Source: Nemertoderma westbladi (lineage: Eukaryota; Animalia; Xenacoelomorpha). From it: a stretch of 36,978 nucleotides of DNA. The position numbers and the translations under genes were made by a program. Position 1 is the first letter of the stretch. Each line of letters opens with the position of its first letter. The notes under the pieces are model-generated. The model had not been told where the DNA came from. It did no database searches and worked only from the letters and a program-made list of their open reading frames with translations. Of the stretch, positions 6,824 to 34,549 are shown piece after piece. The stretch is taken from NCBI GenBank assembly GCA_032718475.1, contig JAUCBJ010007668.1, positions 1-36,978 of the forward strand, given 5' to 3'.

Positions 6824-6837
6824 CGACACCCCTCGTT
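6824..6837 (-). promoter_or_regulatory. Polypurine tract-like site of the Gypsy element
   Basis: The minus strand reads AACGAGGGGTGTCG immediately before the 3' LTR. Confidence 0.6.
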
Positions 6838-7057
6838 AAGAGCGGAGCTCATAATTTAAAATGCTATATGGAAATAAAGAACTTCCAAATAGCATCCAAA
6901 AAATATATTTCTTATAACTAATATGGCCGCCTATTTTATTACTAAAAATATAATTATTCTGTAGGTTTAAACGAAATAATCAAATAATTATACCAAATAC
7001 ATTATATTAAGTAATTTGCATGTGTGGAACAAACATATAATTAATTATGTATGAATG

Positions 7058-9793: not shown

Positions 9794-9798
9794 AACAC

Positions 9799-10821
9799 CT
9801 ACTGTATAATGAAAAATAATGGTAATATTTTAAAGTAATGAAGAAAATAAGCACAATGGTAACACAAAGTTAATATCAGTAATAGTAATATCACATTATT
9901 TTTAAATGATGAAAAATACCTACTATTACTTCTAAAAGATTCCCTCTTGTGAGTCGTATCACTTTCCTGAGAACGTTTTGGAATATGTTTAGAATTCGGT
10001 TGTTGTAATTTTGGAATGGGTGATTGCTCACATGAGACATTCTTGACTTTGTTTACACATGAGACGGACGTCCTATTCATACTATTAAGATTGCGGAAGT
10101 ATACCTTTCTATTTCTACAGTCTATGTTAATATTGTAGTGTTGAAGAAAGTCTAAACCAAGAATTGGTTGACTTACATCAGCAACAATAAATGTCCATGA
10201 AAACAATTTATTGGATAGTTCCGGTATAGAAAAAGAAAGTTTACCTTTACCATAAGATTTTATACTTGAGTGATTGGCAGCTGTTAAACTTTCAGAATTT
10301 GGTACTAATTCTTCTAAGTACATTTTGAAACATGGTGGCAAAATGGAGAGGTCACTTCCGGAATCTACTAATAATTCACCTATAGGTAAAGCTTGTACAT
10401 GTATAGCGTTGACATCGCTAGTATTATTATAATTTTGATTAGAGTTACCTGGCATTGTTGAGCTTGCCTTAGAGAAATCTTTCCAGTTACATGGAGGTTC
10501 ACACTTCGATGCCTCTTTACCGTAGGTGAAATGGTAGTAGCACCATGGCCCGGTTGGATTATATGAGCGAGATTCAGAACGTCGTCGGCTGGGAGTTCTT
10601 TGCCGACTTAGTGATCGTTGTTGCCATGAACGACCTCTACCATCTTCTCGATTAGATGACATAGCTCGTAGCTGTGTGTTGATTTGGTTAATCTGATCAG
10701 AAAGCATCTGTTGCGATTGTACTAAGAGTCTTTGAGATTCTTGCAGGGCACCAAGTTCGGTAACGTGAGCAACTGGAAATAAAGATGATTGATCTGTTTT
10801 CGACTGATGCTGCTCCATCAT
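9799..10821 (-). CDS. gag: N-terminally truncated Gag (RS-rich + CHCC knuckle) fused to aspartic protease with a hydrophobic tail
   Basis: WCYYHFTYGKEASKCEPPC (CsRN1-type CHCC), LVDSGSDLSILP and ILGLDFL (retropepsin), and C-terminal VILLLLILTLCYHCAYFLHYFKILPLFFIIQ. Confidence 0.88.
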   Translation of the reverse strand: MMEQHQSKTDQSSLFPVAHVTELGALQESQRLLVQSQQMLSDQINQINTQLRAMSSNREDGRGRSWQQRSLSRQRTPSRRRSESRSYNPTGPWCYYHFTYGKEASKCEPPCNWKDFSKASSTMPGNSNQNYNNTSDVNAIHVQALPIGELLVDSGSDLSILPPCFKMYLEELVPNSESLTAANHSSIKSYGKGKLSFSIPELSNKLFSWTFIVADVSQPILGLDFLQHYNINIDCRNRKVYFRNLNSMNRTSVSCVNKVKNVSCEQSPIPKLQQPNSKHIPKRSQESDTTHKRESFRSNSRYFSSFKNNVILLLLILTLCYHCAYFLHYFKILPLFFIIQ

Positions 10822-10837
10822 CTCGTCTGGGTCACCA
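10820..10837 (-). promoter_or_regulatory. Primer-binding site, tRNA-Trp-like
   Basis: The minus strand reads TGGTGACCCAGACGAGAT 3 nt after the 5' LTR, a 16/18 match to the tRNA-Trp PBS TGGTGACCCCGACGTGAT. Confidence 0.85.
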
Positions 10838-10840
10838 ATA

Positions 10841-11127
10841 TGTTAGGGTCTGATATGAATCAAAATAAATTGTAAACTTTTATCTGACTAAGTAGTATAT
10901 TTTCTAGATTGATCTAACCGAATAATAAATATTATATCCTACAAACAGCTGTACTACGTTGTATAATCTAAGTAAAGGTCATATTACTGGATGGTGTAAG
11001 AGTCAATGTATCGAGATTTGATTATCCCATTATAGTCATTTACTGTATATACGGTATTTTTCCAGTGTTAATTACATTCCAATATAATTAAGGATTAAAG
11101 CAATATACACTTTTATTGACTCTTACA
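10841..11127 (-). repeat. 5' LTR of the Gypsy element (287 bp)
   Basis: Near-identical to 6542-6823 and adjacent to the PBS. Confidence 0.96.
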
Positions 11128-11514
11128 CTAATCACATTACTTAATGTGAATTTTCATTTGTAATTTAACGATCCATCTTTTAATTTGAAATGGGACTAAA
11201 ATCAAGTAAAAGCACCCATAACTTATATCTACCCTGGGCGGGCCTTTCAGATCTTCCCATGATATTCCCAATCCTGGTCGACCCAGACCTGATTTCTCAG
11301 TCATTTTTAATGAAATTCACTGAAATTTTGAAACAACAACTAGTGGTATATTTTAACACATTCTTTAAAAAAAGACGAAAATTTTTTTGGAAGTTCCTCA
11401 AATATGAAAATTAGTAGTTTTGTGCGATGAAAAAATATAATTGCGGATATGTGACATGTACCTGATATTCAAGTATTATGTGTACATTGGGTTGATATAA
11501 GTAATGCAACTACC

Positions 11515-12540: not shown

Positions 12541-13480
12541 TACCTGTCAGGCCTCTGAACTAAACACTAGAAATATATATTATATTGTACTCAACTCCAC
12601 ATCCAAAAAAGTTATATAGAATAGGATTTTTGTAATTTCATCACCACTATGACACCAAAAAAGACTATCAAACACCAAAAATTTCGAAATATTGTGCAAT
12701 TTTCGGAATTTTAGCCAAAAATTACAGTATAGTACTTATCAACAAATCCATAAAAGAAGATCATTTTTGAGAGATTTTAAAAGCGATTCTTTTGGTGCAC
12801 GTTTGGTCAGTTCCAATCAGGAGAAAATGTTAATGTCATTTTTCCCGCGTTAGTTTTTTTGGGACACTTTCTCTATCTACTTCTTACTCAGTTAGTATTT
12901 TCATTCTGTTTGCTGAATTATGTAGATAATGATTTGAGTTATTATATTTGAATTATTCGATTTTTGGGTACCGGTACTTTTGCGAAGCGAAGAATGCCAT
13001 AAATTTTTTTGAAAAAAAATGTCGAAATTATGACAACACAATTATTTTTCGCGGAATATTTATCTACATAATTCTCGAAACAGAACGAATATCGGTTGAG
13101 TAGCCTAGTTATAAAGTAGATAGAGAAAGTATAGAAAGGGAGAATAAGGATTGAAATAGTGATGTTCCAGAATAATTAAATTTGTAATTAAGCTGATTCA
13201 ATGGGACAAGGAATAAAATTGACACTGACCTGTGAAGTACTGTATCATACAATTTTTAAATGTAACCAAAATTGCCTCACATATTAATGTCACTTATGCA
13301 AAAAATTTACACAATTAATTGCACTGCGCTGAGATTTTTCACAAATTAAAATTCCGATTGTTGCATCGATTATTATTATAAGTGTAATTTATTAATCTTA
13401 GTTTAAAAACCACAATAGTTTATGGAATAACAAGTCATTCCTTTTGGAATTTTAAGGGATTTTGAATTCGACAAATCTGA

Positions 13481-14103
13481 TGGTCTGGGCTGGGCTGGGC
13501 TGGTCTGGTCTAGACTGGTCTGGGCTGGACTGGGCTGGGCTGGTCTGGGCTGGACTGGGCTGGGCTGGGCTGGGCTGGTCTAGACTGGTCTAGGCTGGGC
13601 TGGTCTAGGCTGGGCTGGTCTGGGCTGGACTGGGCTGGGCTGGTCTAGGCTGGGCTGGGCTGGGCTGGGCTGGGCTGGGCTGGGCTGGGCTGGGCTGGGC
13701 TGGGCTGGGCTGGGCTGGGCTGGGCTGGGCTGGGCTGGGCTGGGCTGGGCTGGGCTGGGCTGGGCTGGGCTGGTCTAGGCTGGTCTGGGCTGGTCTGGGC
13801 TGGACTGGGCTAGGCTGGTCTAGGCTGGTCTGGGCTGTGCTGGGCTGGTCTGGTCTAGGCTGGGCTGGGCTGGTCTAGGCTGGGCTGGGCTGGGCTGGGC
13901 TGGGCTGGTCTGGTCTAGGCTGGACTGGTCTAGGCTGGGCTGGGCTGGGCTGGTCTGGGCTGGGCTGGGCTGGGCTGGGCTGGGCTGGGCTGGGCTGGGC
14001 TGGGCTGGGCTGGGCTGGGCTGGGCTGGGCTGGGCTGGGCTGGGCTGGGCTGGGCTGGGCTGGGCTGGTCTGGTCTGGGCTGGGCTGGGCTGGGCTGGGC
14101 TGG
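13481..14103 (+). repeat. (GGGCT)n pentanucleotide microsatellite, about 620 bp
   Basis: CTGGG units with CTGGT, CTAGG and CTGGA variants. The PAQPS ORF on the minus strand is a by-product. Confidence 0.98.
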
Positions 14104-14883: not shown

Positions 14884-15900
14884 CTAATTGCTACATATAA
14901 GGTTTCTGTCCCGTTCTGTATTCTGGAACAGCCCCTTACCGTACTCAAAGGTAGCCAACATTATGGCGCAGGCGGGGGCCACCTTGGCCACTCGGGCGCC
15001 TAACCCGGTGTACAGAGACCGGGGGCCCTGCTCCAGCCACAGTCTACGCAACAGCACCCAGGTGGAGCCACTCGAGGGTTGGGCTACTCCCCGGAAGTCC
15101 ATCTGTTGGTGCGTCTTTATCACGTCGAAAGGGTTAGTTAGTAAAGCCGCCACAGTGCCGCTGGACGCCCCGCTTACAATGTTTAGCGCCAAGTTAGTCG
15201 AGGAAACCCTGTGGATAGCCATGAGTTTAGCTTTAATCAACTCGTAGTTGAACCAAAGGAGTCCGCTAAATGGGACATCCCTGAGTAGAGATGGTCCTAA
15301 ACCGCGGTACAGCGGTAACAGCTGCCCGCGTCGGAAGGAGTCAGTTAGGGAAGTCAATATGTGGGAGTAGGAAGGGCGGGAGGTAGACTGTATGGAAGTC
15401 CGAACGAGTTCCAATGGGGACATTAGGAAGACAGCGACCGCCCGAGAGCCCATCCCGCAGACGGGGGGGATCCACGGTTTATTAATAGTGCCCGCGGAGA
15501 TGTCCCGACGGAAACCAGACCATTGCTTGAGTCTGTCGTTCAGCGTGTAGTAGACCACGGTCTGGGGCACCGCCATGATCAGGGTGGGGGAGAGCCCGCT
15601 CCACAGCGCCCGGGCGCCTTCTACCCTGGATATCGTGAGCAAGCCGTCCACGGTGCCCCGGAGGTGAGGCAGTTTACGTTTATACCAAGCCGTGCCGTTA
15701 CTTCCGTTCAGACACACACACAGATGGTCCATGAGTCCGTTACAGTACAGAAAGCAGTCTCCTTTAGCCATCGGACGGACCTGGGCTTGTAAACGGATCT
15801 TTACAACGTCCAATGGGGTCATCAATAGGGCCGTTAATAAACCGCCCACTGACGATGAAATCATTAGTTGGTTTAACTTGGGAGGCGGTTCGGTCTCCAT
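14884..15900 (-). CDS. SLC25A39/40: Mitochondrial carrier SLC25A39/40-like (glutathione transporter), single exon, 338 aa
   Basis: Three carrier signatures (PLDVVKIRLQ, PLELVRTSIQ, PFDVIKTHQQ), the family-diagnostic CFLYCNGLMDHLCVC loop, LWSGLSPTL, RDVPFSG and RVAKVAPACAIM. The first ATG is at 15900; the ORF-track start at 15903 is GTG. Confidence 0.95.
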   Translation of the reverse strand: METEPPPKLNQLMISSSVGGLLTALLMTPLDVVKIRLQAQVRPMAKGDCFLYCNGLMDHLCVCLNGSNGTAWYKRKLPHLRGTVDGLLTISRVEGARALWSGLSPTLIMAVPQTVVYYTLNDRLKQWSGFRRDISAGTINKPWIPPVCGMGSRAVAVFLMSPLELVRTSIQSTSRPSYSHILTSLTDSFRRGQLLPLYRGLGPSLLRDVPFSGLLWFNYELIKAKLMAIHRVSSTNLALNIVSGASSGTVAALLTNPFDVIKTHQQMDFRGVAQPSSGSTWVLLRRLWLEQGPRSLYTGLGARVAKVAPACAIMLATFEYGKGLFQNTERDRNLICSN

Positions 15901-16273
15901 CACACTTCTGAACTACTTAGAATACAAAGAATTCGTTTAGTATTGTAGGCCTCTACGGTATGCCTACTGCCACTGTTATTATTACCCTAGGGTATTATGA
16001 CTGTATGTTATACGCCGAATTGTTCGAACGAAACCGGGTTGGTCAATCTCTCAATCAACTATCTCATCATTTTATCAAACTCTAACAAACCAACATAGAC
16101 TGCTGGGCTGCACTGCCATTGATATATACTGATATAGCTGTCAGATAGGGCATAGGGCTGTCTGGCTGTAGGGGGGGAAACTGGACGCAATAAAAATTCA
16201 TCCCTCTCCTAGTCACCAGGCAGCCAGGGGACATTCGACGCAAATAACAGCTGATTATTCTCAAAAATAAAAT

Positions 16274-16918
16274 TGTAACCTGTTCTGCTGTAATGTGCTC
16301 AGTTTATTGTTTTGGTAAAAAAAAACGTGCTACTGTCTGACTGTAACCTGCTCCTTTCCCTAAATTGAGAATTTAACATTGAGGGGGATATTAATTCGCC
16401 AAGGCGGGATTTGCGTCCAGTTCCCCCCCCCCCGTCTCATAGCTGTAGGCCTGTATAGTAGGCCCTACATATTATCTGAGTTGAGTACTGTGTAATGCAG
16501 TAGTGTAGTAGGCCTATACTGGTTGTAGTATCGGTCAGACGGTATTCCATAAAGACCTACCGGTACTCGCCTACAGCTATTTATAACTCATACAGACATC
16601 CATCGTTTTTGCTCCTCCAGAATCAAGCTCAAGCAATCTCTCTTAAAGCAGGGTCTTGATCACTTTGCTGCTTGGTCTAGGGCCTATATCTCTAATACCA
16701 GGTACTTTGGGGACCGTTTCTAATTGTCATTCTGCGTACCGGTACCTATTGCAGTATTGCTTGAGTGCCTGATTGTTTTTGGTTATAGAGCAGTAGAGTG
16801 ACTACTGACAGTCTGACCATATGGTTTCCCTCAATTTGGTTTGAAAAGCCCGCCTCTGTAACCTGCTCCTTTCCCTCAATTGGTAAAGTGGCCGTTTATT
16901 GTTTTGGTTAGAAAAGCC
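16274..16918 (-). repeat. Cluster of short ~65-bp repeat units upstream of the SLC25 gene
   Basis: TGTAACCTGCTCCTTTCCCT(C/A)AATTG and GTTTATTGTTTTGGT blocks near 16274, 16342 and 16857. Reverse-complement copies lie at 29764-29836, 31057-31155 and 31418-31460. Confidence 0.65.
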
Positions 16919-18197: not shown

Positions 18198-19422
18198 TGT
18201 TCGCGCTTTTAGACCTTTGGCAGTTTAACCCGCCAAATTAGGATGTCTTCTAGATAATAAATCACTTTAGCCTATGACAAGTATTTAATTCACTACACTA
18301 GTCGAAACCAATCTGTGCGCGATCATTCACCCGCTGGATATACCCGGGAGATTGGGTTCGACGGCTTAATCTTATTGCTATGTAAGCTTAATGTATTATT
18401 CGACTGACAGTATTATATAATCTCTGACAATATTATTCACCTTCGGGAAATATTAACAGTTCCTTTAGGACGTGGCGCTCTATCTATACAAACAGAGTTA
18501 TGACTTAAACTACTCACAACGATATGGCTTAGTTATAATTCACATATATGGCGCATTCTTTAGGAAATGCTTCGTTATCAGGCTCACTCATACACAATGC
18601 TGCACAATACTGCACACTGATCTGCCGATCTTCACTGATTTTAGTCACATATAAAAGGAACACGGACCGAATCATGTAGGGTCTATCAAATAACATTAGA
18701 TTCACTTCAAACCACTTTAACATAAGTCACAATCGTTATATGTAACCTTTCTCTCTTACCTTCGGTATATCAAGAATATTGGGTTTTCGGGGTTATTTAT
18801 CGTTATTCCAAATATAATAATTCATCAACCATATTATGAAGAACTGACAGTAAATAGCAGTAGAACAATATAAAGTATGCACAGGTTGTTTGATTAGGTA
18901 TGGTATGTTATGTTGTGATAAATGCAGATAACGGATATATGTCCTTATAATTAAGCCTACTAGTGTAAGGCTAAAGCCGTTCTTCCTGGCTTAGAATCAC
19001 CAACAACACTAAAAACTGATAAGAATAACTATAAGAATACCAGCTACCCTTATTCTACAAAGATCTCACCCACCACAGAGAATGAGCATACAGATAGGAA
19101 ATTCAGTTCAGTAGATCTGTGATAGGTCAAAATCAAAACCAACTCAAATCCTATTGGCAGATACAGAAAGCAGGGCTATGGGGCAACGTGGCAATATCAG
19201 CCGTTAGCCGTCATCATGGTAGCGACACTGTTTTCAAGAGTATCGAGCTTTTACATCACGAAATTGCAGATTATGTCCTCTAAAGTACAAATACAGAAGA
19301 AATGGCTTTTATGTCCTCCAAAACACCAGTACAGCAAGGACACGGCCTTTTTATGCCTGGTAAACCAACCACAGAGTACTTTACGGGGATAATAACCTGC
19401 TAATTACACAAAAGCTTTTACA
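18198..19422 (-). repeat. 3' LTR of the BEL/Pao element (1225 bp)
   Basis: TGTTCGCGC...GCTTTTACA. I spotted only 5 substitutions by eye versus 32768-33992. Confidence 0.96.
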
Positions 19423-19430
19423 CCGCTCCC
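19423..19430 (-). promoter_or_regulatory. Polypurine tract-like site of the BEL/Pao element
   Basis: The minus strand reads GGGAGCGG directly before the TG of the 3' LTR, which agrees with the orientation of the ORFs. Confidence 0.6.
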
Positions 19431-22483: not shown

Positions 22484-25400
22484 TTACGTTATGGAGTCCC
22501 TAGATGTTTGAAGGATTAGGGAGGTGGTCGTGGGAAGAGAATCTTGCCTTCCACAGTTTCCGGAGAGTCCTCCATTCCCTTCCGGTAAACACAAACGACC
22601 GACTGGGTGATTGAGTCGCTGCATCCCGAATACAATTCCAGGTTTCCTCTTCGTCCTGGAATAGTGGCGATAGAAACATCGCTCTAGGTACACGACGGCC
22701 TTACAAAGCCGATTCCAGGAGCTATAGGGGTCCGTCGCTCCCTGCAGGAGAGGTGAGAGTCCCTGCGAGACGTCTGATGTTCCAGAGCTCCAATCGCTCT
22801 CTCTGATCTTCATGAAGGATCCACTCGCGGTGGGGAGGTCCAGATCCACGGCGTCGTCCCTGGCAATATGTAATACCGACAGATCTATCCCGGGTTCAAA
22901 TAACTCCGATCCACCCGTCCGGGTTTTAGGTTTGACTTTCTCCACTCCCTTGGCTGGTCTAATCTCAGTCGGAGTAAGATGGGGAGGCCATTCATCCTCC
23001 TTACTCAGGAAGTCGGGTTCACCTAACCGGTCTGTAGTATCTGTCAGTTCTTGAGGAGTTGCTCCTCTGGAAGCGATGTCAGTTGGATTAAACTTCTTGG
23101 GGCAATATCTCCATTGATCTACATTGGAGCTAATATCGTCATTATCTGAGGAGTATGGTGTTCCCTCAGTTGGGTCGTCTCCCTCACTAGTATCATCTTC
23201 CCATTCACTCACCTGGCAGACGCGATCTTGAAGCAGTCTTTCTCTGAGCGTTCTTCGGGAAGGTCCAGTAAGGTACCAACCTACTCTAGTTCTTACCGCA
23301 TAGGTCTGAAGTGGTTGCGGTTGAGCAGGTCGTTTCTCCAATGTCTCCAGCGCCTCGTGCGCGTTTTGACCGATTAATATTTGTACTCCAGGATAATCGG
23401 TGTCGAATCTAGGGATGTTAAGTTGTTGGGCATGATCATCTTCGTTCCAATTATAAGGTTCCACTTGGGTGGTAGCGAAGTTCTTTATTGCCACCATTTT
23501 GACTGACCTTATACTGTATTCTCCTAGTTTATCCTGTGGAGTGGACAACTCACCTATATAATAGTCGGCAGCTACAGTAGAATTCCAAACCTGCATGATC
23601 CCTGACATGTTTAGCTTGGTTCGGAACTTGGGTTGTCCAGCAAAGATGACTTCGGCTAGTTCTTTATCGATGAATGTTCCTGTGCTACCGGAGTCCAGGA
23701 GGGCGTTCACTATATAGCTCTTCTGAGGTCCGTGGACCCGTAACTGGACTACAGGAAATTCTCGGATTCCTATATTGGAAGTTGGCGCTTTCCAAGATGG
23801 TTGTTGATCAGAAGTAGTTAAGGTAAGGTCGCTGTCTGTGTCTTTCTCATGCATGAGTGCTCGATACACTGCGGTGGTGTTTATTAGGTAACAGGATTCG
23901 TTTTGGTCGGAGAACTCGTCCGTATAGAATCCTTCCATCTCAGATTGATCAGTGTCGTTCACATCACTGAATTGGACATGTAGTTCGGACTCACTTACCT
24001 GACTCGGGCTGTTTCGTTCGAATTCCGTGTGCAACAAGATATGATGTTTTGCGCCGCACTTTGCACACCTTGCGTCGGAGTAACAGGTTCGCCGTTGGTG
24101 TCCTCGTCTGAGGCAATTATAACACAACCGCTTATCCCACATGACTTCACGTCTATCCTTTAGTGATTTCCTCAGGAATTTATCACACGCATTTAAACGG
24201 TGGGGCCCGTCGCACAGCACACATTTCGGCTTGATGTTACTTACTTTAACCTGTGCTATGTGGTGCACACTTGTTCTTTCCTCGGGCTTTCTCACCTGAA
24301 TTCTTTTAGGAGACGTAGGAGGGGTTTTTTGTACCGGTTCCCTTCTGTCATTGGGTCGAGACTTGGATTTACTTACCTGGTCTTTAGGCGTTTTATTGAC
24401 GTAATAAGATCTTTCAGTGTCTTTCCCGCTGTCCTCTCCTTGAGAGGTTTGGCTTTCGCCGTCGTCTGTATAACACATTGGTGTTACCCTTCTCCTAGAA
24501 ACGGGTTTCTCACTTACCTTGTTTTCCAATGTCTTCTCTCTGGACTGCCTTAGGAGCTGTAATTTCACTTCTCTATCTAAGAATGACATGAGATCAGTCA
24601 TGGTAGGGTCTCGTCGTTGTTGTTCCATCATATATAACACTTTCTTATCCCAGCGTGTACCTACTCCACCCTTCGGTAAAGTAGATGCTAAGGCTCCTAC
24701 AACCATAGAATTCTGGTATTCATGAGACTTACCTAACCAATCTAGTTGTCTACAGATCTCCTGAATCTCATCGGAAAACTCTATAATCCCGCTGCTAAGA
24801 AACTTTCGGGGCGCCATTAATTTCGCATATAAATACCTAGCTATGTTAGTCCTATTACCATACCTGATGTTTAGTGTATCCCAAACTTGTCTTAATCCAT
24901 CTGGATGTCCAATAAATTTTAACGCCATTGACTTGGGAGATCCTTCCAAGCACTCGATGAGGAATCTAAGTTTCTCTCCATTAGATAGCACAGAGTTCTG
25001 TATGTTATCTTTGTAATATTCATTAAAAGGTAACCATTTCATCTCATCTCCATTGAACTTGACGATCTCTCCCACCTTTACCGCTTGCCGGGCTTCGGTT
25101 CTAGCCATTTGACGCGTAAAACTTTCTTGGGCCATCGTGTTATTTAATATCGAGTTATCGGTATATAAATTTCTCGGATTATGATCCGGTCTATAGGGAA
25201 TATCATTATCAACAGGTTTATAATTACCCTTAATAGGGTTCACTATAGGAGTTTCTACTTCGCTAGCAGTATAGATGCGTGTAGGCTCCACACCTTGCGC
25301 ATGTGTTACTTCAGACCTAACAGGTTGACACATTGTTACAGGGGGTGGTGATATACCCCTTTTTGTGTTCACTAATTTATCGCGCTCCACCGCGATACTT

Positions 25401-25540
25401 TGCTGCACTTCTTGCAACTCTAGTCTACTTTCCCTTACTGTGCCCTTAAATTGTTGAACAGTCTCCTGCATCTGCCCGAGCAGGAGATCCATCCCCCGCC
25501 GTCTCTCGTCCACCCATTCGACCGCCGAAGCGGGAGACAT
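22484..25540 (-). CDS. BEL/Pao Gag core + zinc knuckles + aspartic protease + short in-frame remnants of RNase H and integrase ends (1018 aa)
   Basis: KFNGDEMKWLPF...EKLRFLIECLEG...L.IRYG (DUF1759-like). CVLCDGPH..C / CYNCLRRGH....C / CAKCGAKHHILLH. ALLDSGS..TFI, ILIG and TRVGWYLTG. Then QWRYCPKKFNPTDIASRG, YSSWNRL and HPVGRLCL. No YxDD motif and no DDE core. Confidence 0.9.
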   Translation of the reverse strand: MSPASAVEWVDERRRGMDLLLGQMQETVQQFKGTVRESRLELQEVQQSIAVERDKLVNTKRGISPPPVTMCQPVRSEVTHAQGVEPTRIYTASEVETPIVNPIKGNYKPVDNDIPYRPDHNPRNLYTDNSILNNTMAQESFTRQMARTEARQAVKVGEIVKFNGDEMKWLPFNEYYKDNIQNSVLSNGEKLRFLIECLEGSPKSMALKFIGHPDGLRQVWDTLNIRYGNRTNIARYLYAKLMAPRKFLSSGIIEFSDEIQEICRQLDWLGKSHEYQNSMVVGALASTLPKGGVGTRWDKKVLYMMEQQRRDPTMTDLMSFLDREVKLQLLRQSREKTLENKVSEKPVSRRRVTPMCYTDDGESQTSQGEDSGKDTERSYYVNKTPKDQVSKSKSRPNDRREPVQKTPPTSPKRIQVRKPEERTSVHHIAQVKVSNIKPKCVLCDGPHRLNACDKFLRKSLKDRREVMWDKRLCYNCLRRGHQRRTCYSDARCAKCGAKHHILLHTEFERNSPSQVSESELHVQFSDVNDTDQSEMEGFYTDEFSDQNESCYLINTTAVYRALMHEKDTDSDLTLTTSDQQPSWKAPTSNIGIREFPVVQLRVHGPQKSYIVNALLDSGSTGTFIDKELAEVIFAGQPKFRTKLNMSGIMQVWNSTVAADYYIGELSTPQDKLGEYSIRSVKMVAIKNFATTQVEPYNWNEDDHAQQLNIPRFDTDYPGVQILIGQNAHEALETLEKRPAQPQPLQTYAVRTRVGWYLTGPSRRTLRERLLQDRVCQVSEWEDDTSEGDDPTEGTPYSSDNDDISSNVDQWRYCPKKFNPTDIASRGATPQELTDTTDRLGEPDFLSKEDEWPPHLTPTEIRPAKGVEKVKPKTRTGGSELFEPGIDLSVLHIARDDAVDLDLPTASGSFMKIRESDWSSGTSDVSQGLSPLLQGATDPYSSWNRLCKAVVYLERCFYRHYSRTKRKPGIVFGMQRLNHPVGRLCLPEGNGGLSGNCGRQDSLPTTTSLILQTSRDSIT

Positions 25541-25751
25541 TCTTCAGACCTAACGGGTTGACACATTGTTACAGGGGGTGGTGGTATACCCCTTTGTAAA
25601 CCCCTTTCTATACCCCCTTTAACTGTTGAACAGTCCCTTCTAACTCTCGGACCTGTTGGGAGGAGCGCCTTTGATTCTCCTCCATCTTTCCGAGGAGAAT
25701 GTCCATCCCCCGCCGTCTCTCGTCCACCCAATCAACCGCCGAAACGGGATC
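25312..25751 (-). repeat. Internal tandem duplication (~210-230 bp) at the ORF1/ORF2 junction
   Basis: SAV(D/E)WVDERRRGMD.LLG...TVQQ.KG and GI.PPPVTMCQPVRSE are each encoded twice. Confidence 0.9.
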
Positions 25752-27560
25752 CGCCAACGTTGTAGCGGGCGGACGAGGGACAATGGGCGACAAATCATGA
25801 ATATTTCGCTCGGAGTCCAGAGCATGAACTGTCTCATGGGCTGTTCTGCTGGGCACAGGTAGCTTAGTGCTGTGCAACGGGAATTGAGAGGTAGGTTCAG
25901 GGAGTACAGGTGTCTCTACGACCGAAAGGGTAGCTTCGGGAACAGGCCTAATTATTTCAGGCTCATCTACTACAGTAGGGAGTCTCTCTATTGTAATTAT
26001 TTGGTCTGTGGGTTCTGTACTCGCTAAGTTGGTGTTATTTAGTTGCCTTCTAACAGCTGGAGGCAAATCAGGCAATTTCTGACGGTGGAATGTTCTTTTA
26101 CGTCTGCTTAGGCGAGATCGATTTCCTCCGCCTTCAGTGTCGGTGGTATCGCCTTCTTCAGATGATGTATAACCCTGTCTTTTGGGAGTAGATCGATTCA
26201 TCATCTGCATATTACTAGCTGTTAACTGTCTACTGAAGTCGTCTTGCTTCTCTTGAAGACCCTCCAACTCCAGTTGGGCGATCTCTTCAGCCGCTCTCCG
26301 TTCTGCTTCCGCCACTTTTGCCTCTGCCGCTGCCGCTGCCGCTGCCGCTTTTCTTTCTGCTTCTGCAGCTACCACTGCTGCTTTCTTTCTGTCTTCTATA
26401 CGTTTTTTCTTTACTTGTTCTTCTTGGACTCGTGTGATGCGGAGTTGTTCATCAAATTTAGCCTGATTCGCAGCCCTCATTTCCACATCGATGGCATCCA
26501 ACACAAGCTTGGTTCCTTCACTATTAGGGCTAAGTCCCTCTAACCTTCTCCTCAACTCATCATCACCTAAAAAACGTTGATAGTCTGACAGATAGATGTC
26601 AATGGCATCCCTCTTATGCGGTTTCTCTGCCGTCGCTTCACTTTCCACTTGGGAAAAAGTAGCGTCTGTTGATTCTCCATGGGTTGATCGCTCCTCCAGC
26701 TGAGCTTTCCACTGAGCTGTTCCTTGAACCTGGAGACTCACCCGTTGAAACCAAGTCTTTACGGCAACTTGCAACGACGTGTCTTGCCTTCGTTTAGAAG
26801 CCTCCTCAAAGGCCGATAATATTAGCCTGATTCGTAGAATTCTTTCTCTAACTTGATAAAGCAGTTGTCCCTGCTCTTGAGGTCCTTGTGGTTGTTGAAA
26901 CAGTTGTCCTTTTACTCGCTCCATAGAGCTGAAGAATCCCTGTGCGTATCCGGCTGCGGACCTCTTCCACACAGCTGGATCGATGGTTTCCTTGGCTACT
27001 CCCATCTGGTGTATGTCTTCCCAGGCAGCTTCTGATAAATCGAACGGGAGTCCGGGTCCGGGGAAGTTCCATTGCGACTCGACCATAGATTTCAGTTCTT
27101 CCTTTGTGTATCCCGCATAACTATCTTTAGTTGAGCGCTTACTTCTCGCCCAATCGATCTGGTGTTCTTCCACCGCGATCAATAGCCTAGTGAGTACGGC
27201 TGCAGGAAGAATGAGAAGGGGATCCGAATAAACCGCATCCGTCATCCTTGCTCCGCGCTCGGGTGTCAGTTCTACAGTATCCTCACTACTGGAGCTGTTG
27301 GGCCATTGAGAAGTAAGTTCTTGGCTCGCGGGTTGTTGCTGTTCTGCTGCTTCTTGGTCCCGCTTGACCTGAGCTCGAGTGCCTATGATAGACCTACGAT
27401 GTTGGACCAGCCTAGGTTCTGTTATTACTACAGGAGGGATGACCTTCCTCACAGTGGGAGGTGAACTGAACTTACGACTAGACGGTTCTACGCCTCTATC
27501 TGAGTCGCAGATAGCTACATCTAATAAACTATCTGACAGGTTCTGTTTAGTGTCAGACAT
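25608..27560 (-). CDS. ORF1 of the BEL/Pao element: Gag N-terminal-like coiled-coil / low-complexity protein (650 aa)
   Basis: Long uninterrupted ORF with first ATG at 27560. It has an Ala/Glu-rich helix (AAEAERKAAAAAAAAEAK), a basic patch RSRLSRRKR and a Pro-rich linker, and its end duplicates the start of ORF2. Confidence 0.8.
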   Translation of the reverse strand: MSDTKQNLSDSLLDVAICDSDRGVEPSSRKFSSPPTVRKVIPPVVITEPRLVQHRRSIIGTRAQVKRDQEAAEQQQPASQELTSQWPNSSSSEDTVELTPERGARMTDAVYSDPLLILPAAVLTRLLIAVEEHQIDWARSKRSTKDSYAGYTKEELKSMVESQWNFPGPGLPFDLSEAAWEDIHQMGVAKETIDPAVWKRSAAGYAQGFFSSMERVKGQLFQQPQGPQEQGQLLYQVRERILRIRLILSAFEEASKRRQDTSLQVAVKTWFQRVSLQVQGTAQWKAQLEERSTHGESTDATFSQVESEATAEKPHKRDAIDIYLSDYQRFLGDDELRRRLEGLSPNSEGTKLVLDAIDVEMRAANQAKFDEQLRITRVQEEQVKKKRIEDRKKAAVVAAEAERKAAAAAAAAEAKVAEAERRAAEEIAQLELEGLQEKQDDFSRQLTASNMQMMNRSTPKRQGYTSSEEGDTTDTEGGGNRSRLSRRKRTFHRQKLPDLPPAVRRQLNNTNLASTEPTDQIITIERLPTVVDEPEIIRPVPEATLSVVETPVLPEPTSQFPLHSTKLPVPSRTAHETVHALDSERNIHDLSPIVPRPPATTLADPVSAVDWVDERRRGMDILLGKMEENQRRSSQQVRELEGTVQQLKGV

Positions 27561-27689
27561 GTTGGTTTGCACAGTTGAATGCCTACTGCTATATTACAGT
27601 TTAAGCAAGTCTAGTAATTCAGAGTTAACTGCTAGCCTAGTAATTAATTACCGATACTGCTACTCAGGGCAGCGTGATATATATAATAT

Positions 27690-27945: not shown

Positions 27946-28881
27946 ATTATTTTAAATAACTGAATTTCTGAATTTTAAGGTTACTTGGTTACCTTAACTT
28001 ACTTTATTGCCGTTATTTAAGCAGTAGTCCAACTGATATTGAGACCTAATTGTTGTATGGCAGGCCTACTATTTATAAATCGTTTGAGTTGATTTATAAT
28101 ATATATATACCCGTTTTAATGGGCTTTAGTCAATGCTTGAAATAAATGTTATTATTTCTGGGGAGTAATCACTACACAAAGCGGTGCGCTTTCAGTGAAG
28201 TGTTACTTATAGGACACTAAAACAAATAATGCTAATTTACCTAAGTTACTTAATACTACAAATTACGTACGATTCGGGTTGAGATTACAATCTCTAAATA
28301 AACACAAAAATTTACAAAAACACAATATGAATTTTCAGGGTAATTTTACAAGAAGTCTACAAACCAGCCTAACAAAGGGTTAGAAATCTGGTTATTACAA
28401 CAGACAGGGTACTACGGTATTTGAAAATAATAAGTAGTAGTAAATACACTGCGTTGTCCAGATAGGAAAATACCACCGCCTGACGACCTATAGCCGTATC
28501 GCTATAGGTTCTACGTTATGTATCACGGAGTGTTCCTACCTAGAAGTTAATAGAGCTAATCGAACGTGCCTATCAACCACTTTACAACACAAATATAATG
28601 CCTACACTAATTACTTTCGGAAAGCACTGTACACTAAACCCTAAATTAGGTACGAGTACTTGTACAACAGATAATCAGTAGTTAAATATACTTGAACAGC
28701 TAAAAGAACCACGGCATCTGCTGGAGTGACCGGTGCACAAAATCACCAGTCTTTACCTACGCCAAGCAGCCCGTGTAGTACCGGGGTTAATTTAACTATA
28801 GCGGTATGTATAACAAACACAATTATTGTAGGAACAAACTTGGGGAATGAATGTTGCGAATAATCGCATAAACTCTGAATA

Positions 28882-29140
28882 ATAAATATTACGCTACGCG
28901 TACAAACTACTCAAACAAAATGCAGACCAAATACCGACAGACTACTATCAAGCCTAAACAAACTACGGTATATGCAGACTCCGAAATGATTAGGTAGTAT
29001 GCGTTCTAACCCAGTAGTACGACTTATTCTTTAATTGGGGGTTTACCTTACAGCATTGGCTGCCCCTACTTCCTAACCGTTCTTTATCGGACAAGGGCTC
29101 TACACACACTACAATCCGTTCAGACCTAATAACAGCCAGA
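28882..29140 (-). repeat. Leader repeat copy A (~260 bp) with a ~120-bp near-invariant core
   Basis: Colinear with 32115-32378. The core ATGCAGACTCCG...TTTATCGGACA differs at one base. Confidence 0.9.
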
Positions 29141-29836
29141 TGAGGTAGAATAAAACGTCTGTCCTTATCTGATCTGATCTGACAGCATCTGATCCTATAA
29201 CCAATCAGGAGAAAGAGATATAATATTTACCTAACTGTCTGTTAGGTAAATAGCCAATAGCTGAATAGGGGATCACGTTTCAGGTTGCCTGTTACGTATC
29301 AGTATCATCATATGAAGTAGCAGTACAGGCATATCAGTATGCATCTAAATGCACAAAGGCATGTTATTATATATTAAAAATGCGATATAGGATGAAGGAT
29401 GGCGGGTATGAAAGTTGTGTGATTGTCCCAGCAAGATGGATAGTTTCAGATGTAAAAAACTTTCGTAGATTTAGTCTGTTACAGTAGTTGGTGTTGAAAC
29501 ATTCAACTTTTATTAAAAACAATACAGCATTTGCTGCAATATTTTTTTCGTAAATCTTTCTTGTTAATAGTTATCATTATTAATAGTTAAAGTTAATTAT
29601 ATTAATTATAATTAATATTATTAATTAAGTACGGTAATGATTCTTATTAATATATTACATTTAAAATATGTATGAAATTTAAGAATTTTATTAATTTTAC
29701 TATTTATTAAAGAATATGGGAAGGTGGATGGGAATGTGGGAATTTATAAACACTTATTACCTTCCAATTGAAGGAAAAGAGCAGGTTACAGCGGCTGTAA
29801 TTTCTAACCAAAACAATAAACGACGTTGTTACCTAC

Positions 29837-31051
29837 TGTTCGCGCTTTCAGACCTTTGGCAGTTTAACCCGCCAAATTAGGATGTCTTCTAGATAATAAA
29901 TCGCTTTTAGCCTCTGACAAGTATTTGATTCACTACACTAGTTGAAACCAATCTGTGCGCGATCATTCACCCGCTGGATATACCCGGGAGATTGACTTTG
30001 ACGGCTTAATCTTATTGCTATGTAAGCCTAATGTATTATTCGACTGACAGTATTATATAATCTCTGACAATATTATTCACCTTCGGGGAATATTAACAGT
30101 TCCTTTTGGACGTGGCGCTCTATCTATATAAACAGAGCTATGACTTAAACTACATGCAACGATATGGCTTAGTTACAATTCACATATATGGCGCATTCTT
30201 TAGGAAATGCTTCGTTATCAGTCTCACTCATACACAATGCTGCACAATACTGCACACTGATCTGCCGATCTTCACTGATTTTAGTCACATATAAAAGGAA
30301 CACAGACCGACTCATGTAGGGTCTATCAGATAACATTAGATTCACTTCAAACCACTTTAACATAAGTCACAATCGTTATATGTAACCTGTCTCTCTTACC
30401 TTCGGTATATCAAGAATATTGGGTTTTCGGGGTTATTTCTCGTTATTCCAAATATAATATTTCATCAACCATATAATGAATAACCGACAGTAAATAGCAG
30501 TATAACGTTATAAAAGTATGCACGACAAGACCAGCCAAGCATTGAGTAAGTTGTTAACCATTGAGTTACCCAGTGATAACGGATATATGTCCTTATAATT
30601 AAGCCTACTAGTGTTAGGCTAAAAGCAGAAAAGCACAAATATTCCAAAAGCCGTTCTTTCTTGGCTCAGGACTGAATGATAACACTGCCCATAAAGCATT
30701 GCGTGATTTCTAGGAAATTTCTGTACAAGAACAGTAAAAACGCTCTGATTGGTTGACTGAACTGAGAGGCACCGTAGAACAAAGAAAATCGACACGTATA
30801 CAGCTCAGCTGTTAACCGTCGTCATAGTAACTACTGTTTCAAGAGGATCTAGCTATTTTGCGTCATAGAATTGCCATAGAATCACCAACCATGTCCCCCA
30901 AAGTACACATACGGAAGAAATAGCTCTTAGGTCCTCTAAAAAACACCGATACAGCAATAATACGGCCTCTTACGCCTACTAAACCAACTACAGAGTATTT
31001 TACGGGAAAAATAAGGAAAAATAACCGGGCAATTCCGCAAAAGCTTTTACA
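29837..31051 (-). mobile_element. Solo LTR of a sibling subfamily of the host BEL/Pao element (1215 bp)
   Basis: Same termini TGTTCGCGC...GCTTTTACA and its own 5-bp TSD CCTAC (29832-29836 and 31052-31056). The left ~690 bp is closely similar to the main LTRs and the right part is diverged. Confidence 0.93.
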
Positions 31052-31266
31052 CCTACAAATTGGGAAAGGAGCAGGTTACCGAGACAGAGTTTTCTAACCA
31101 AAACAATAAACGATTTTGTTACCTACCAATTGAGGGAAAGGAGAATATGTTACCGCGGCAGCTTGTTTACACAGTTACACCCGTCACCTTCTTACTAACC
31201 GTCCTACGGACTGATCAATAGATCATCCCCCTCAAAAAATAAAGGACATCGCGCACGCGCATAAAA

Positions 31267-31632
31267 CACTTAATAAAGATAAATTTAATAAAAAATATCG
31301 ACCGAAAAATGAAATCCTGGTATTCTTCACATGGGCGAAGAATACCAGACTTTCTGCCGTTTTATTTCACTTTGCAGTTACCCCTATGTGAAGAATACCA
31401 GGTTTTCACCAAAAACACAGGTTACAGAAGGGCTGAATATAACCAAAACAATAAACGAATTAGTACAGTATATGTGCAGGTTATAAGACATAAATAAGCT
31501 CTATAATACACTCAATAAAGATAAATTAAAAAAGAATTAAAATCTTCAAATATAAAATTCCAATAAAAGTCGACCGAAAAGTGAAATCCTGGTATTCTTC
31601 ACATGGGCGGTATTCTTCACATGGACCGACAC
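31267..31632. repeat. Duplicated/inverted GGTATTCTTCACAT modules (MITE remnant)
   Basis: TCGACCGAAAA.TGAAATCCTGGTATTCTTCACATGGGCG occurs near 31298 and 31570, with an inverted ATGTGAAGAATACC at 31386-31399. Confidence 0.6.
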
Positions 31633-31774
31633 CAAAATTTGGCACCAGCCGCTAAAAACAAAGTTAAAATTTCTAGCTTATTTTATTTGAATTCCTTTTA
31701 GTTCGTTTCAGTTAGTCTTTTAGTTAGTATCGTTAGTTTCAGAGCGGGAAGTATTATATTGACACCCCCCCCCC

Positions 31775-31996
31775 CTGGTTTAAGGGGAATACCGGGGAAA
31801 CTTCACATGCTGACATAGGCAGAAAGTCCAGTACTCATTTAGCTACCGTACCATTTAAGGATGCAAGGCAGAGATGCCTCGCTAAACCCTTCAAAACATT
31901 CGTGCCGAAACGAAAACTACCTTGGCCCCATGCCGGGGTTGAACCCACAACCTCCGAGAGATGTGAATTCAATATAACCACTACACCAAGGTGCGC
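31775..31996 (-). mobile_element. tRNA-derived SINE-like element
   Basis: Pol III A box TGGTGTAGTGG (31988-31978) and B box GGTTCAACCCC (31945-31935) at tRNA spacing, no clean cloverleaf, followed by unrelated body sequence. The 3' limit is uncertain. Confidence 0.6.
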
Positions 31997-32114
31997 TCTG
32001 AACCAAGATGGAACAAGTGTCAGATACCGTCAGATCAGATCAGATCAGATCAGATAAGGACAGACGTTTTAGCCATCCTACAGCCAGACAACTATCCAGC
32101 CTACAAATTATCTA

Positions 32115-32378
32115 AATAAATATTATACGCTACCCGTACAGACTTACACAAACAAAGTACAGACTAAACGATGGCAGACTACTCTCAAGCCTAAATAAAC
32201 TACAGGACATGCAGACTCCGAAATGATTAGGTAGTATGCGTTCTAACCCAGTAGTACGACTTATTCTTTAGTTGGGGGTTTACCTTACAGCATTGGCTGC
32301 CCCTACTTCCTAACCGTTCTTTATCGGACAGGTGATCCACACACACTACAATCCGTTCAGACTTAACAGCAATCAGAC
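32115..32378 (-). repeat. Leader repeat copy B (~260 bp)
   Basis: Colinear with 28882-29140. Confidence 0.9.
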
Positions 32379-32577
32379 AACAGCTCAGCCTACCAATTGT
32401 CTGTACAATCTGATCAGGCTTACACGCCTTCTGTTCAATACTGGCCTACAAATAAAATAAAACTGACAGAAATAAGTAAGCTCCAAAAGAAACAAGGGGT
32501 GTACAGTCCCTAATCTCTTAAACAGCCTACCGGTATGCAACAATCAAATCGAATAATACTAATGTACTTATACGGAA

Positions 32578-32697
32578 GTACCGGTTAGGACAGTTGGGCC
32601 TACGGACCTACAGAAGTACCGGTTCTGGCAGTTGGACCTACGGACCTACGGCAGTACCGGTTCTGGCAGTTGGGCCTACTGACCTACAGATGTACCG
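32578..32697 (+). repeat. 38-bp tandem repeat, 3 copies, in the retroelement leader
   Basis: GTACCGGTTCTGGCAGTTGG(G/A)CCTACGGACCTACAGA. units start at 32578, 32616 and 32654. Confidence 0.88.
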
Positions 32698-32756
32698 TTC
32701 AGGTTTACCGGTTGACCGGTACTTTCAACTTTATTGCTTACTGCAATAAAGAAGCA

Positions 32757-32767
32757 ATATCCGTTAT
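32757..32767 (-). promoter_or_regulatory. Candidate self-primer binding site (ATAACGGATAT) in the PBS position
   Basis: Abuts the CA end of the 5' LTR, has no TGG, and is the exact reverse complement of the sense-strand LTR 11-mer at 33508-33498. Confidence 0.55.
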
Positions 32768-33992
32768 TGTTCGCGCTTTTAGACCTTTGGCAGTTTAACC
32801 CGCCAAATTAGGATGTCTTCTAGATAATAAATCACTTTAGCCTATGACAAGTATTTAATTCACTACACTAGTCGAAACCAATCTGTGCGCGATCATTCAC
32901 CCGCTGGATATACCCGGGAGATTGGGTTCGACGGCTTAATCTTATTGCTATGTAAGCTTAATGTATTATTCGACTGACAGTATTATATAATCTCTGACAA
33001 TATTATTCACCTTCGGGAAATATTAACAGTTCCTTTAGGACGTGGCGCTCTATCTATACAAACAGAGTTATGACTTAAACTACTCACAACGATATGGCTT
33101 AGTTATAATTCACATATATGGCGCATTCTTTAGGAAATGCTTCGTTATCAGGCTCACTCATACACAATGCTGCACAATACTGCACACTGATCTGCCGATC
33201 TTCACTGATTTTAGTCACATATAAAAGGAACACGGACCGAATCATGTAGGGTCTATCAAATAACATTAGATTCACTTCAAACCACTTTAACATAAGTCAC
33301 AATCGTTATATGTAACCTTTCTCTCTTACCTTCGGTATATCAAGAATATTGGGTTTTCGGGGTTATTTATCGTTATTCCAAATATAATAATTCATCAACC
33401 ATATTATGAAGAACTGACAGTAAATAGCAGTATAACAATATAAAGTATGCACAGGTTGTTTGATTAGGTATGGTGTGTTATGTTGTGATAAATGCAGATA
33501 ACGGATATATGTCCTTATAATTAAGCCTACTAGTGTAAGGCTAAAGCCGTTCTTCCTGGCTTAGAATCACCAACAACACTAAAAACTGATAAGAATAACT
33601 ATAAGAATACCAGCTACCCTTATTCTACAAAGATCTCACCCACCACAGAGAATGAGCATACAGATAGGAAATTCAGTTCAGTAGATCTGTGATAGGTCAA
33701 AATCAAAACCAACTCAAATCCTATTGGCAGATACAGAAAGCAGGGCTATGGGGCAACGTGGCAATATCAGCCGTTAGCCGTCGTCATGGTAGCGACACTG
33801 TTTTCAAGAGTATCGAGCTTTTACGTCACGAAATTGCAGATTATGTCCTCTAAAGTACAAATACAGAAGAAATGGCTTTTATGTCCTCCAAAACACCAGT
33901 ACAGCAAGGACACGGCCTTTTTATGCCTGGTAAACCAACCACAGAGTACTTTACGGGGATAATAACCTGCTAATTACGCAAAAGCTTTTACA
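32768..33992 (-). repeat. 5' LTR of the BEL/Pao element (1225 bp)
   Basis: Near-identical to 18198-19422 and upstream of the minus-strand ORFs. Confidence 0.96.
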
Positions 33993-34549
33993 CACTGTTG
34001 GGTTTCCGGCGTTGGTTTCAACAACTTCCTTTGTTGTGTCGACTATCTTTGGTGTGGTGGTTCTGTCACGAATCCACTCAACCTCCGAAGCCGCAGGACA
34101 CTGGCCTTGGCAGCATAGCGACTGGCAACCTTCTTCTATTCCGAATAAATCCGCTTGGAGTGTGTTTCTGAGACTGCTTGTCTTATCGTTAAACCTCCGC
34201 TTTGAATAACTTTTCCACAATTTTCTTCACTCAACTCCAAACAAGGATATACGCAACCCGTTTGTATGGTTTCAAAGATAAGTTCGACATTATCTTCTGT
34301 ATAGGCTGTAAATCGAACCAATAGTGCATTGCACTCCGTGCAGTTTTCCTTGTCTTCCCATTGGTTGGTTGTCAACCAACCATTAGTCTCGAATAAGTAT
34401 TCTATCCTCTCTTGGTGTTTCTTTTGAAGTTCTTCGTCTTCGGAATAGAATCTCCAGGTTTCGGTTACTGGGCAAGTATAATATGAATGTGAACAAGGAA
34501 ATGAGATCACCATCGAGACAATCACAAGAATTGTCTTTAAAGATCTCAT
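33993..34549 (-). pseudogene. Disrupted cell-surface Cys-rich protein gene, Ly6/uPAR (three-finger)-like, GPI-anchored
   Basis: Signal peptide MRSLKTILVIVSMVISFPCSHS and Cys pattern C...CxxC...GCxxxC...C...GCQSLCCQGQC, then a Thr-rich stalk. There is one frameshift near 34140-34220, and the retroelement is inserted just before the hydrophobic tail. Confidence 0.7.

What the first reader, a model, noticed from the sequence alone, without database searches (positions are those of the whole stretch)
32729..33540. BEL/Pao retrotransposon with no tRNA PBS but a perfect 11-nt self-primer geometry
Seen: on the sense (minus) strand the 5' LTR ends ...GCGCGAACA and is followed directly by ATAACGGATAT (32767-32757), with no TGG to pair with a tRNA CCA end. 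The LTR itself contains the exact complement ATATCCGTTAT on the sense strand (33508-33498; also 18938-18928). The match is exactly 11 nt, and the primer's 3' end would sit so that the first DNA bases are the LTR's terminal TG. The 11-mer is also invariant in the diverged sibling solo LTR (30576-30586), at the edge of a conserved island next to ~50 bp that do not align. A perfect 9-bp hairpin (CTTTATTGC/GCAATAAAG, 32729-32751) follows 5 nt downstream. Known: fission-yeast Tf1 and the Tf1/sushi group of Ty3/Gypsy prime minus-strand DNA with the transcript's own first 11 nt after RNase H cleavage, whereas BEL/Pao elements are described as tRNA-primed. Inference: this family may have evolved tRNA-independent self-priming; I know of no such report for BEL/Pao. 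Caveats: the transcription start is unmapped, a TATA-like TTATAA lies only about 7 nt upstream of the 11-mer, and R-U5 would be about 740 nt.
Basis: partly seen in the sequence, partly recalled or inferred. Interest (0 to 1): 0.86.

Follow-up and report, generated by a model that had tools for sequence, protein, structure and literature searches.

The report
Self-primer signature in BEL/Pao retrotransposon
A young, cut-down BEL/Pao jumping gene in an animal genome has no tRNA landing site where DNA copying normally starts and carries instead 11 bases that pair exactly with a conserved spot in its own terminal repeat, so it likely starts copying with a piece of its own RNA, as the yeast element Tf1 does, although BEL/Pao elements are described as tRNA-primed.

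Summary
Observation confirmed. A 15.8-kb BEL/Pao-lineage element lacking RT and integrase has 1,225-bp LTRs with 5 differences. The 11 nt after the 5' LTR (32767-32757) exactly complement LTR 33508-33498 (19 of 20,000 shuffles); the first TGG is 282 nt away. Public DNA contigs show this leader is the norm in a high-copy family, not a local deletion. Most copies would extend the pairing to 12 nt. Family conservation stops within about 3 nt of the 11-mer's 3' end, where a cut would end first-strand DNA. A PBS variant at position 1 appears matched in the LTR (2 contigs); a match for a position-5 variant was not seen. Folding gives the duplex, abutting a U5 stem, only if the RNA starts at 33508-33524. 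Best reading: Tf1-like self-priming (0.62). The start site is unmapped, a TATA-like word would put it past the 11-mer, and host tRNA fragments were untestable. ICTV calls BEL/Pao tRNA-primed; 10 searches listed no self-priming BEL. The scan noted this geometry before in other genomes (unchecked).

The parts
32768..33992 (-). 5' LTR, 1,225 bp, TG...CA
   Evidence: 5 differences from the 3' LTR; 5-bp target duplication CAGTG at 33997-33993 and 18197-18193
33498..33508 (-). candidate self-primer, exact complement of the PBS-position 11-mer
33497..33545 (-). conserved island ending in the 11-mer; holds a palindromic hairpin and the TATA-like word at 33520-33515
   Evidence: 48 of 49 identical to the solo LTR, against 283 of 447 upstream and 21 of 44 downstream; folds
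33453..33496 (-). hypervariable segment directly 3' of the 11-mer
33096..33148 (-). R-region stretch predicted to pair with the island and the 11-mer when the RNA includes sequence upstream of 33525
   Evidence: 3 of 300 shuffles as good; solo LTR 8 of 300
32768..32895 (-). predicted U5 stem: 32785-32768 pairs with 32895-32880 and abuts the PBS duplex
   Evidence: z -2.29; solo LTR -3.07; core pair probability about 0.48
32757..32767 (-). PBS-position 11-mer with no TGG
   Evidence: variants among copies
32729..32751 (-). perfect 9-bp hairpin 5 nt after the PBS
29837..31051 (-). nested solo LTR of a diverged sibling, target duplication GTAGG, 11-mer unchanged at 30586-30576
25608..27593 (-). 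661-codon open frame with no family hit; probably the N-terminal part of Gag, split from the next frame at an internal duplication of about 220 bp
   Evidence: (D14, D17)
22484..25543 (-). 1,019-codon frame: BEL/Pao Gag (DUF1759), zinc knuckles, protease, then only a 40-60 residue remnant of the RNase H tail; no RT or integrase found
19423..19430 (-). polypurine tract next to the 3' LTR
18198..19422 (-). 3' LTR

Best explanation
This BEL/Pao-lineage element has no tRNA-type primer site and carries an 11-base site that exactly complements its own LTR, so it likely primes minus-strand DNA with the front end of its own RNA, which would start at or just upstream of 33508, is predicted to fold onto the primer site next to a U5 stem, and would be cut after 33498 to free a 3' end. 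Shown: the complement, its register against the terminal CA, no TGG, the same leader across the family, and conservation ending at the primer's 3' edge. Predicted: the duplex and the U5 stem. Inferred: the start site; the cut (by RNase H, as in Tf1); RT supplied in trans by an intact relative not found here; the hypervariable segment as the scar of first-strand ends; and the island-to-R helix as a way to hide the second copy of the 11-mer at the RNA's 3' end.
For: Exact 11-nt complement at offset 0: 19 of 20,000 shuffles. No TGG for 282 nt, whereas the neighbouring Gypsy element has TGG 3 nt after its LTR and no self-complement of 7 nt or more. The leader is family-wide. The commoner letter at 32756 (86% of depth in X1, 78% in X3) pairs with 33509 and gives 12 bp. 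PBS positions 1 and 5 vary in 22-40% of depth in X1 and X3, which is hard to square with a PBS recopied from one host tRNA each cycle (established knowledge). 6 of the 30 listed records (490 laid) begin at 33499, and the one loose-end row there (X3, 2 contigs, agreement 0.72) ends in the letter that restores the pair with the position-1 variant. 8 of the 12 listed loose-end rows on that side fall at 33495-33499, and X1 depth falls about 30-fold from 33496-98 to 33487-89. The LTR pair is 63% alike upstream of the island and 96% downstream of 33452, placing the U3/R border near the 11-mer by inference. Duplex probability is 0.67-1.0 for starts 33508-33524.
Against: The start site is unmapped. 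A TATA-like word at 33519 would, at the usual metazoan spacing of about 30 nt (recalled), start the RNA near 33489, past the 11-mer; that would explain the hypervariable edge nearly as well. The duplex probability is 0.04 or less for all 7 starts tested at 33526 or further upstream, because an island-to-R helix wins by about 6 kcal/mol at 33528-33530. No matching LTR change for the PBS position-5 variant was seen: one search listed no substitutions at all and hid 173 rows; unmatched, it would leave a mismatch in 22-40% of depth. The position-1 match rests on 2 contigs and is not linked to the PBS on one molecule; X4 showed no position-1 variant (0 of depth 384). By energy the duplex is matched by 13 of 1,000 shuffles. 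Tf1's second flanking duplex is not predicted; a local hairpin stands there. R-U5 would be 741 nt.
Confidence: 0.62

Rival explanations
1. Self-priming, but not by the first 11 bases: the primer is the same 11-mer taken from the U3 copy at the RNA's 3' end, from a 3' processing cut at 33498, or from the end of a longer capped fragment that starts upstream of the island.
For: The TATA-like word would leave the 11-mer in U3. The island is conserved for 37 nt upstream of the 11-mer and starts at a T-rich tract plus TAG in the solo LTR. The TATAAG word lies about 16 nt before 33498, the spacing of a poly(A) signal (recalled; lead from e1-7468529). No conserved AATAAA or ATTAAA lies elsewhere in both LTR types.
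Against: With upstream sequence present the 11-mer is predicted to pair with R, not with the PBS. TATAAG is not a canonical poly(A) signal and the sequence after it is not GU-rich. No spliced GT-AG joint inside the LTR beats the contiguous match (best 10 nt).
Confidence: 0.15
2. The pairing is real and selected but structural (end-to-end circularisation, packaging, or an RNA switch), and priming happens some other way.
For: The LTR has other long predicted helices. Fungal GalEa elements have a conserved hairpin in place of a PBS with no known mechanism (PMC5445492, passages).
Against: The duplex ends exactly at the terminal CA, the one register that gives a correct LTR end, and no other primer site is visible in 282 nt.
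Confidence: 0.1
3. A host RNA (tRNA half or internal fragment, or another small RNA) primes at this site, and the LTR match is a relic or coincidence.
For: PBSs without TGG can match tRNA halves or internal regions in Ty1/copia (PMC6317226 passages; FunCo1 in PMC5445492). The host tRNA set was not available.
Against: The PBS varies at two positions in 22-40% of depth, and the LTR holds an exact, conserved complement.
Confidence: 0.08
4. Chance match, or a rearrangement peculiar to this defective copy that removed a normal PBS.
For: AT-rich DNA; 13 of 1,000 shuffles match by energy; the element is heavily rearranged (nested solo LTR, pol deletion).
Against: The same leader is deep in 4 runs from 4 studies; exact match in 19 of 20,000 shuffles; the 11-mer is unchanged in the diverged solo LTR.
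Confidence: 0.05

Closest known systems
Tf1/Tf2 of Schizosaccharomyces pombe, Tj1, Tosmo1-3 and the Tf1/sushi group (Ty3/gypsy chromoviruses)
   Same: An 11-nt PBS right after the 5' LTR that complements an LTR segment instead of a tRNA; a stem beside the PBS; a diverged U3 ending close to the primer (PMC7175516, PMC4600332, bioRxiv 10.1101/2022.12.06.519325; passages).
   Different: BEL/Pao proteins, not Ty3/gypsy; R-U5 would be 741 nt; only one of the two flanking 'pretzel' duplexes is predicted; start site and RNase H cut are shown for Tf1 and only inferred here.
Belpaoviridae / BEL-Pao elements (ICTV profile; Achilles)
   Same: DUF1759 Gag, zinc knuckles, protease, RNase H tail remnant, TG...CA LTRs, polypurine tract.
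   Different: The ICTV profile gives an 18-nt PBS for host tRNA-Arg or tRNA-Gly (PMC8742986, whole text), and Achilles has a tRNA-Tyr PBS (PMC4580426, passages). Here there is no tRNA-type PBS, and RT and integrase are missing.
TAR lineage of Ty1/copia (Houba, Osr-1) and Tcn1
   Same: Self-priming predicted from a complement of 10 nt or more between the PBS position and the 5' LTR, the criterion met here (PMC6317226, passages).
   Different: Plant Ty1/copia and Tcn1 chromoviruses; it shows the trait is already proposed outside Tf1/sushi, but not in BEL/Pao.
Cer7 of Caenorhabditis elegans (BEL lineage)
   Same: Recalled only: proposed to encode its own tRNA-like primer RNA, so a BEL element independent of host tRNA. 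One search found no paper to check this.
   Different: As recalled, a separate tRNA-like sequence inside the element, not a piece of the LTR.

Membership tests
BEL/Pao (Belpaoviridae) | DUF1759 Gag followed by zinc knuckles and an aspartic protease | tested here: met
   PF03564 E 7e-13; knuckles and the DSG motif read from the translation; 10 of 10 top relatives scanned carry DUF1759 and 8 of 10 the Pao domain PF05380 (10 of the 150 listed)
BEL/Pao (Belpaoviridae) | RT, RNase H and integrase of BEL type, placed by phylogeny | tested here: inconclusive
   RT and integrase not found with 8 full-length BEL queries; a 40-60 residue RNase H tail matches all 8. Filed as a non-autonomous derivative of the lineage.
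BEL/Pao (Belpaoviridae) | LTRs with TG...CA, target duplication, polypurine tract | tested here: met
BEL/Pao (Belpaoviridae) | 18-nt PBS complementary to a host tRNA 3' end (ICTV profile) | tested here: not met
   no TGG for 282 nt; this departure is the finding
Tf1/sushi group | Ty3/gypsy chromovirus polyprotein | tested here: not met
   BEL/Pao domains only; not a member
Tf1-type self-priming (mechanism) | PBS complementary to an LTR segment in register with the terminal CA | tested here: met
Tf1-type self-priming (mechanism) | Primer is the first 11 nt of the transcript | not testable with these tools
   no RNA holder on record; contigs cannot show a start; folding allows starts 33508-33524
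Tf1-type self-priming (mechanism) | Two flanking duplexes ('pretzel') | tested here: inconclusive
   U5-side stem predicted; a local 9-bp hairpin replaces the other
Tf1-type self-priming (mechanism) | PBS and primer co-vary | tested here: inconclusive
   position 1 apparently matched in 2 contigs; position 5 not seen; no linkage on one molecule
Tf1-type self-priming (mechanism) | RNase H cut after the primer | not testable with these tools
   only the indirect edge of conservation at 33495-33499

The most novel reading that the evidence does not exclude
A high-copy animal BEL/Pao family has dropped host tRNA and primes reverse transcription with the first 11-12 bases of its own RNA, independently of Tf1/sushi. 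It does so across a 740-nt R-U5 loop, with a U3 island that hides the second copy of the primer at the RNA's 3' end, and each round leaves a hypervariable scar at the cut site.
Probability: 0.5. Interest if true: 0.82.

Novelty: new variant of a known kind. Interest (0 to 1): 0.7.

Why it matters
The ICTV profile states that Belpaoviridae replicate with a host tRNA primer and that their replication is poorly understood. Self-priming is shown for Tf1 and predicted for its group and one plant copia lineage. A case in BEL/Pao would put the mechanism in a third LTR superfamily and make it a recurring solution. It would free such elements from host tRNA supply and from silencing aimed at a tRNA-type PBS (inference), and tRNA-based LTR annotation would miss their primer sites. 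The family is abundant and recently mobile, so start-site mapping and copy-by-copy comparison can decide the question.

Tried and rejected
No genome is held, so no copy-by-copy PBS/LTR table and no host tRNA set. No RNA holder listed; X5 is only a guessed RNA run, and its one joint across U3 has no GT-AG ends and also stands in a DNA run, so it was not counted as splicing. Related DNA: none for the Gag-protease protein in viral contigs; 61 pattern hits for a BEL alignment, 0 confirmed; LTR-end patterns gave 49 viral and 12 metagenome loci, 0 of 61 related beyond the pattern. No close intact partner: best relatives about 21-39% identical over long stretches. Splice-built primer rejected here (best joint 10 nt against 11 contiguous). 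Rfam on 28000-34200 gave 1 chance match (E 0.75) and ARAGORN 0 genes in the window; neither tests host tRNA fragments. The Atlas gave no usable hit for the 661-codon frame. Host not placed: its SLC25A39/40 protein is at most 51% identical to any of the 120 listed relatives, all named ones animal. No earlier notes on this genome or sequence. The substitution table was empty although records carry other letters, so it was not read as invariance. No supplements were read; PBS tables there could bear on the novelty claim, and subscription papers and Repbase/GyDB entries were not searchable.

Full report
Observation. On the minus strand the 5' LTR runs 33992-32768 (1,225 bp, TG...CA) and differs from the 3' LTR (19422-18198) at 5 positions. 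The 5-bp target duplication is intact and a polypurine tract precedes the 3' LTR. The 11 bases after the 5' LTR (32767-32757) are the exact complement of 33508-33498, and the same 11-mer stands in the 3' LTR and in a nested solo LTR. The first TGG comes 282 nt later. An exact complement arose in 19 of 20,000 shuffled LTRs (45 of 20,000 for offsets 0-5); by duplex energy 13 of 1,000 shuffles did as well. The neighbouring Gypsy element is an internal control: TGG 3 nt after its LTR and no self-complement.

What the element is. The 1,019-codon frame has DUF1759 Gag, zinc knuckles and a protease motif. Of the 150 relatives listed, the 10 scanned all carry DUF1759 and 8 carry the Pao domain. After the protease only a 40-60 residue RNase H tail remains; 8 full-length BEL queries found no RT or integrase. 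It is a recently inserted, non-autonomous member of the BEL/Pao lineage and needs RT in trans. No close intact partner was found. The host is an animal that I could not place.

The family. No genome is held, so I laid public contigs. The family is abundant: single contigs in the LTR reach depth 10,250 against 41 for a flank contig in X3. Summed depth is not a copy number, but the leader after the LTR carries about a third to a half of the R-U5 depth in X1 and X3, so this leader is the family norm. Among the 40 substitution rows shown (173 hidden), three touch the PBS. At 32756 the commoner letter (86% in X1, 78% in X3) pairs with 33509 and would give 12 bp. PBS position 1 (32767) varies in 26% and 29% of depth, position 5 (32763) in 22% and 40%; X5 shows both at the same depth in one contig each, and X4 shows no position-1 variant. 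A PBS recopied from one host tRNA each cycle should not drift like this (established knowledge).

Covariation, as far as it could be seen. In one search (33466-33550; 490 records laid, 30 listed) 6 listed records from 3 runs begin at 33499, so they differ at the primer's last base. The single loose-end row at that place (X3, 2 contigs, agreement 0.72) ends in the letter that restores the pair with the position-1 variant. That is weak support: few contigs and no link to the PBS on one molecule. The change needed at 33502 for position 5 was not seen, because the substitution table came back empty. If it is absent, 22-40% of depth carries a mismatch in the duplex.

The edge of conservation. Against the solo LTR the 5' LTR is identical at 283 of 447 positions upstream, 48 of 49 in the island that ends with the 11-mer, 21 of 44 just after it, and 656 of 685 beyond. 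In the runs, 8 of the 12 listed loose-end rows on that side fall at 33495-33499 and the rows are unlike one another; X1 depth falls about 30-fold within 10 nt. In a Tf1-like cycle first-strand DNA ends at the cut behind the primer and jumps there, so variation would gather at this spot (inference). A start site a few bases further on would leave a similar edge, so this does not decide between the two.

Folding. With the RNA starting at 33508-33524 the primer-PBS duplex has probability 0.67-1.0 and abuts a U5 stem that reaches the terminal CA. The stem is kept in the solo LTR. For all 7 starts tested at 33526 or further upstream the duplex drops to 0.04 or less, because the island pairs with R at 33096-33148 (3 of 300 shuffles as good, solo LTR 8 of 300). 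This counts against a far-upstream start. It also suggests a role for the island: at the RNA's 3' end, where U3 is present, it would hide the second copy of the 11-mer (inference). The TATA-like word is part of that helix and of a local hairpin with the 11-mer, so its conservation need not mean a TATA box. If it is one, the RNA would start near 33489 (spacing recalled) and the 11-mer would lie in U3. Folds of 800 nt are predictions only.

Mechanism. Most likely (0.62): the RNA starts at or just before 33508, its first 11-12 bases pair with the PBS beside the U5 stem, a cut after 33498 frees a 3' end, and RT from an intact relative extends it through TG into U5-R. Rivals: self-priming by the U3 copy, a 3' cut or a longer fragment (0.15); structural pairing without priming (0.10); a host RNA fragment (0.08, untested); chance or a local rearrangement (0.05). 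A splice-built primer, a lead from earlier scan notes, is not needed here: the best spliced joint gives 10 nt.

Comparison with what is known. Tf1 pairs its first 11 bases with the PBS and RNase H cuts between bases 11 and 12 (PMC7175516, passages); the three-duplex structure is described in bioRxiv 10.1101/2022.12.06.519325 (passages) and Tj1 in PMC4600332 (passages). Self-priming is predicted for Tcn1 and the copia TAR lineage by the same test (PMC6317226, passages). The ICTV profile says BEL/Pao use a host tRNA (PMC8742986, whole text); Achilles has a tRNA-Tyr site (PMC4580426, passages). PMC3118150 has no occurrence of PBS, primer or tRNA (term search). Passages of PMC3286476, PMC3601003, PMC5341516, PMC8220671, PMC6934838 and PMC5445492 were also seen; none reported a self-priming BEL element. 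Ten searches listed no paper on one, judged from listings and these passages; the library lacks most subscription papers, and no supplements were read. The Cer7 self-encoded primer is recalled only. The element works like Tf1 by prediction but is not a member of the Tf1/sushi group.

Earlier scan notes. Searches returned 10 distinct AI notes on similar geometry in BEL/Pao elements of other genomes. I did not check them and do not count them as support; two gave leads (splice joint, poly(A) end) that I examined here.

Verdict. A real, family-wide feature; a new variant of a known kind; interest 0.70. The step that matters most, the transcription start, is still unmeasured.

Noticed in passing
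window 6542-11128, minus strand: Young Ty3/gypsy element with LTRs of about 287 bp, two frames (RT, RNase H, integrase by Pfam) and an ordinary TGG-type PBS (tRNA-Trp-like, label recalled).
   Followed up: partly
window 14884-15912, minus strand: Intronless SLC25A39/40-like mitochondrial carrier frame, at most 51% identical to listed animal relatives; compact gene or retrocopy.
   Followed up: partly
window 33096-33148 with 33498-33545: Predicted long helix between the conserved U3-side island and R, kept in the solo LTR; some contigs diverge in this R stretch, so it is not invariant.
   Followed up: partly
window 33331 and 33012, minus strand: Splice-donor-like words inside the LTR, kept in the solo LTR; a T-rich tract plus TAG precedes the island in the solo LTR and is shortened by a deletion in this copy.
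   Followed up: partly
window 29759-29836 and 31051-31126: The solo LTR sits between two copies of a repeat of about 75 bp that also occurs inverted at 16835-16915, probably another small mobile element.
   Followed up: no
window 28881-29140 and 32115-32377: 260-bp direct repeat at 89% inside the long leader, with an inverted TCAGA-repeat end.
   Followed up: no
window 32571-32697: Three 38-bp tandem units in the leader, with unit number varying among contigs.
   Followed up: no
window 223-1750 and 13366-14000 (approximate): A 32-bp satellite array and a 10/15-bp repeat array.
   Followed up: no
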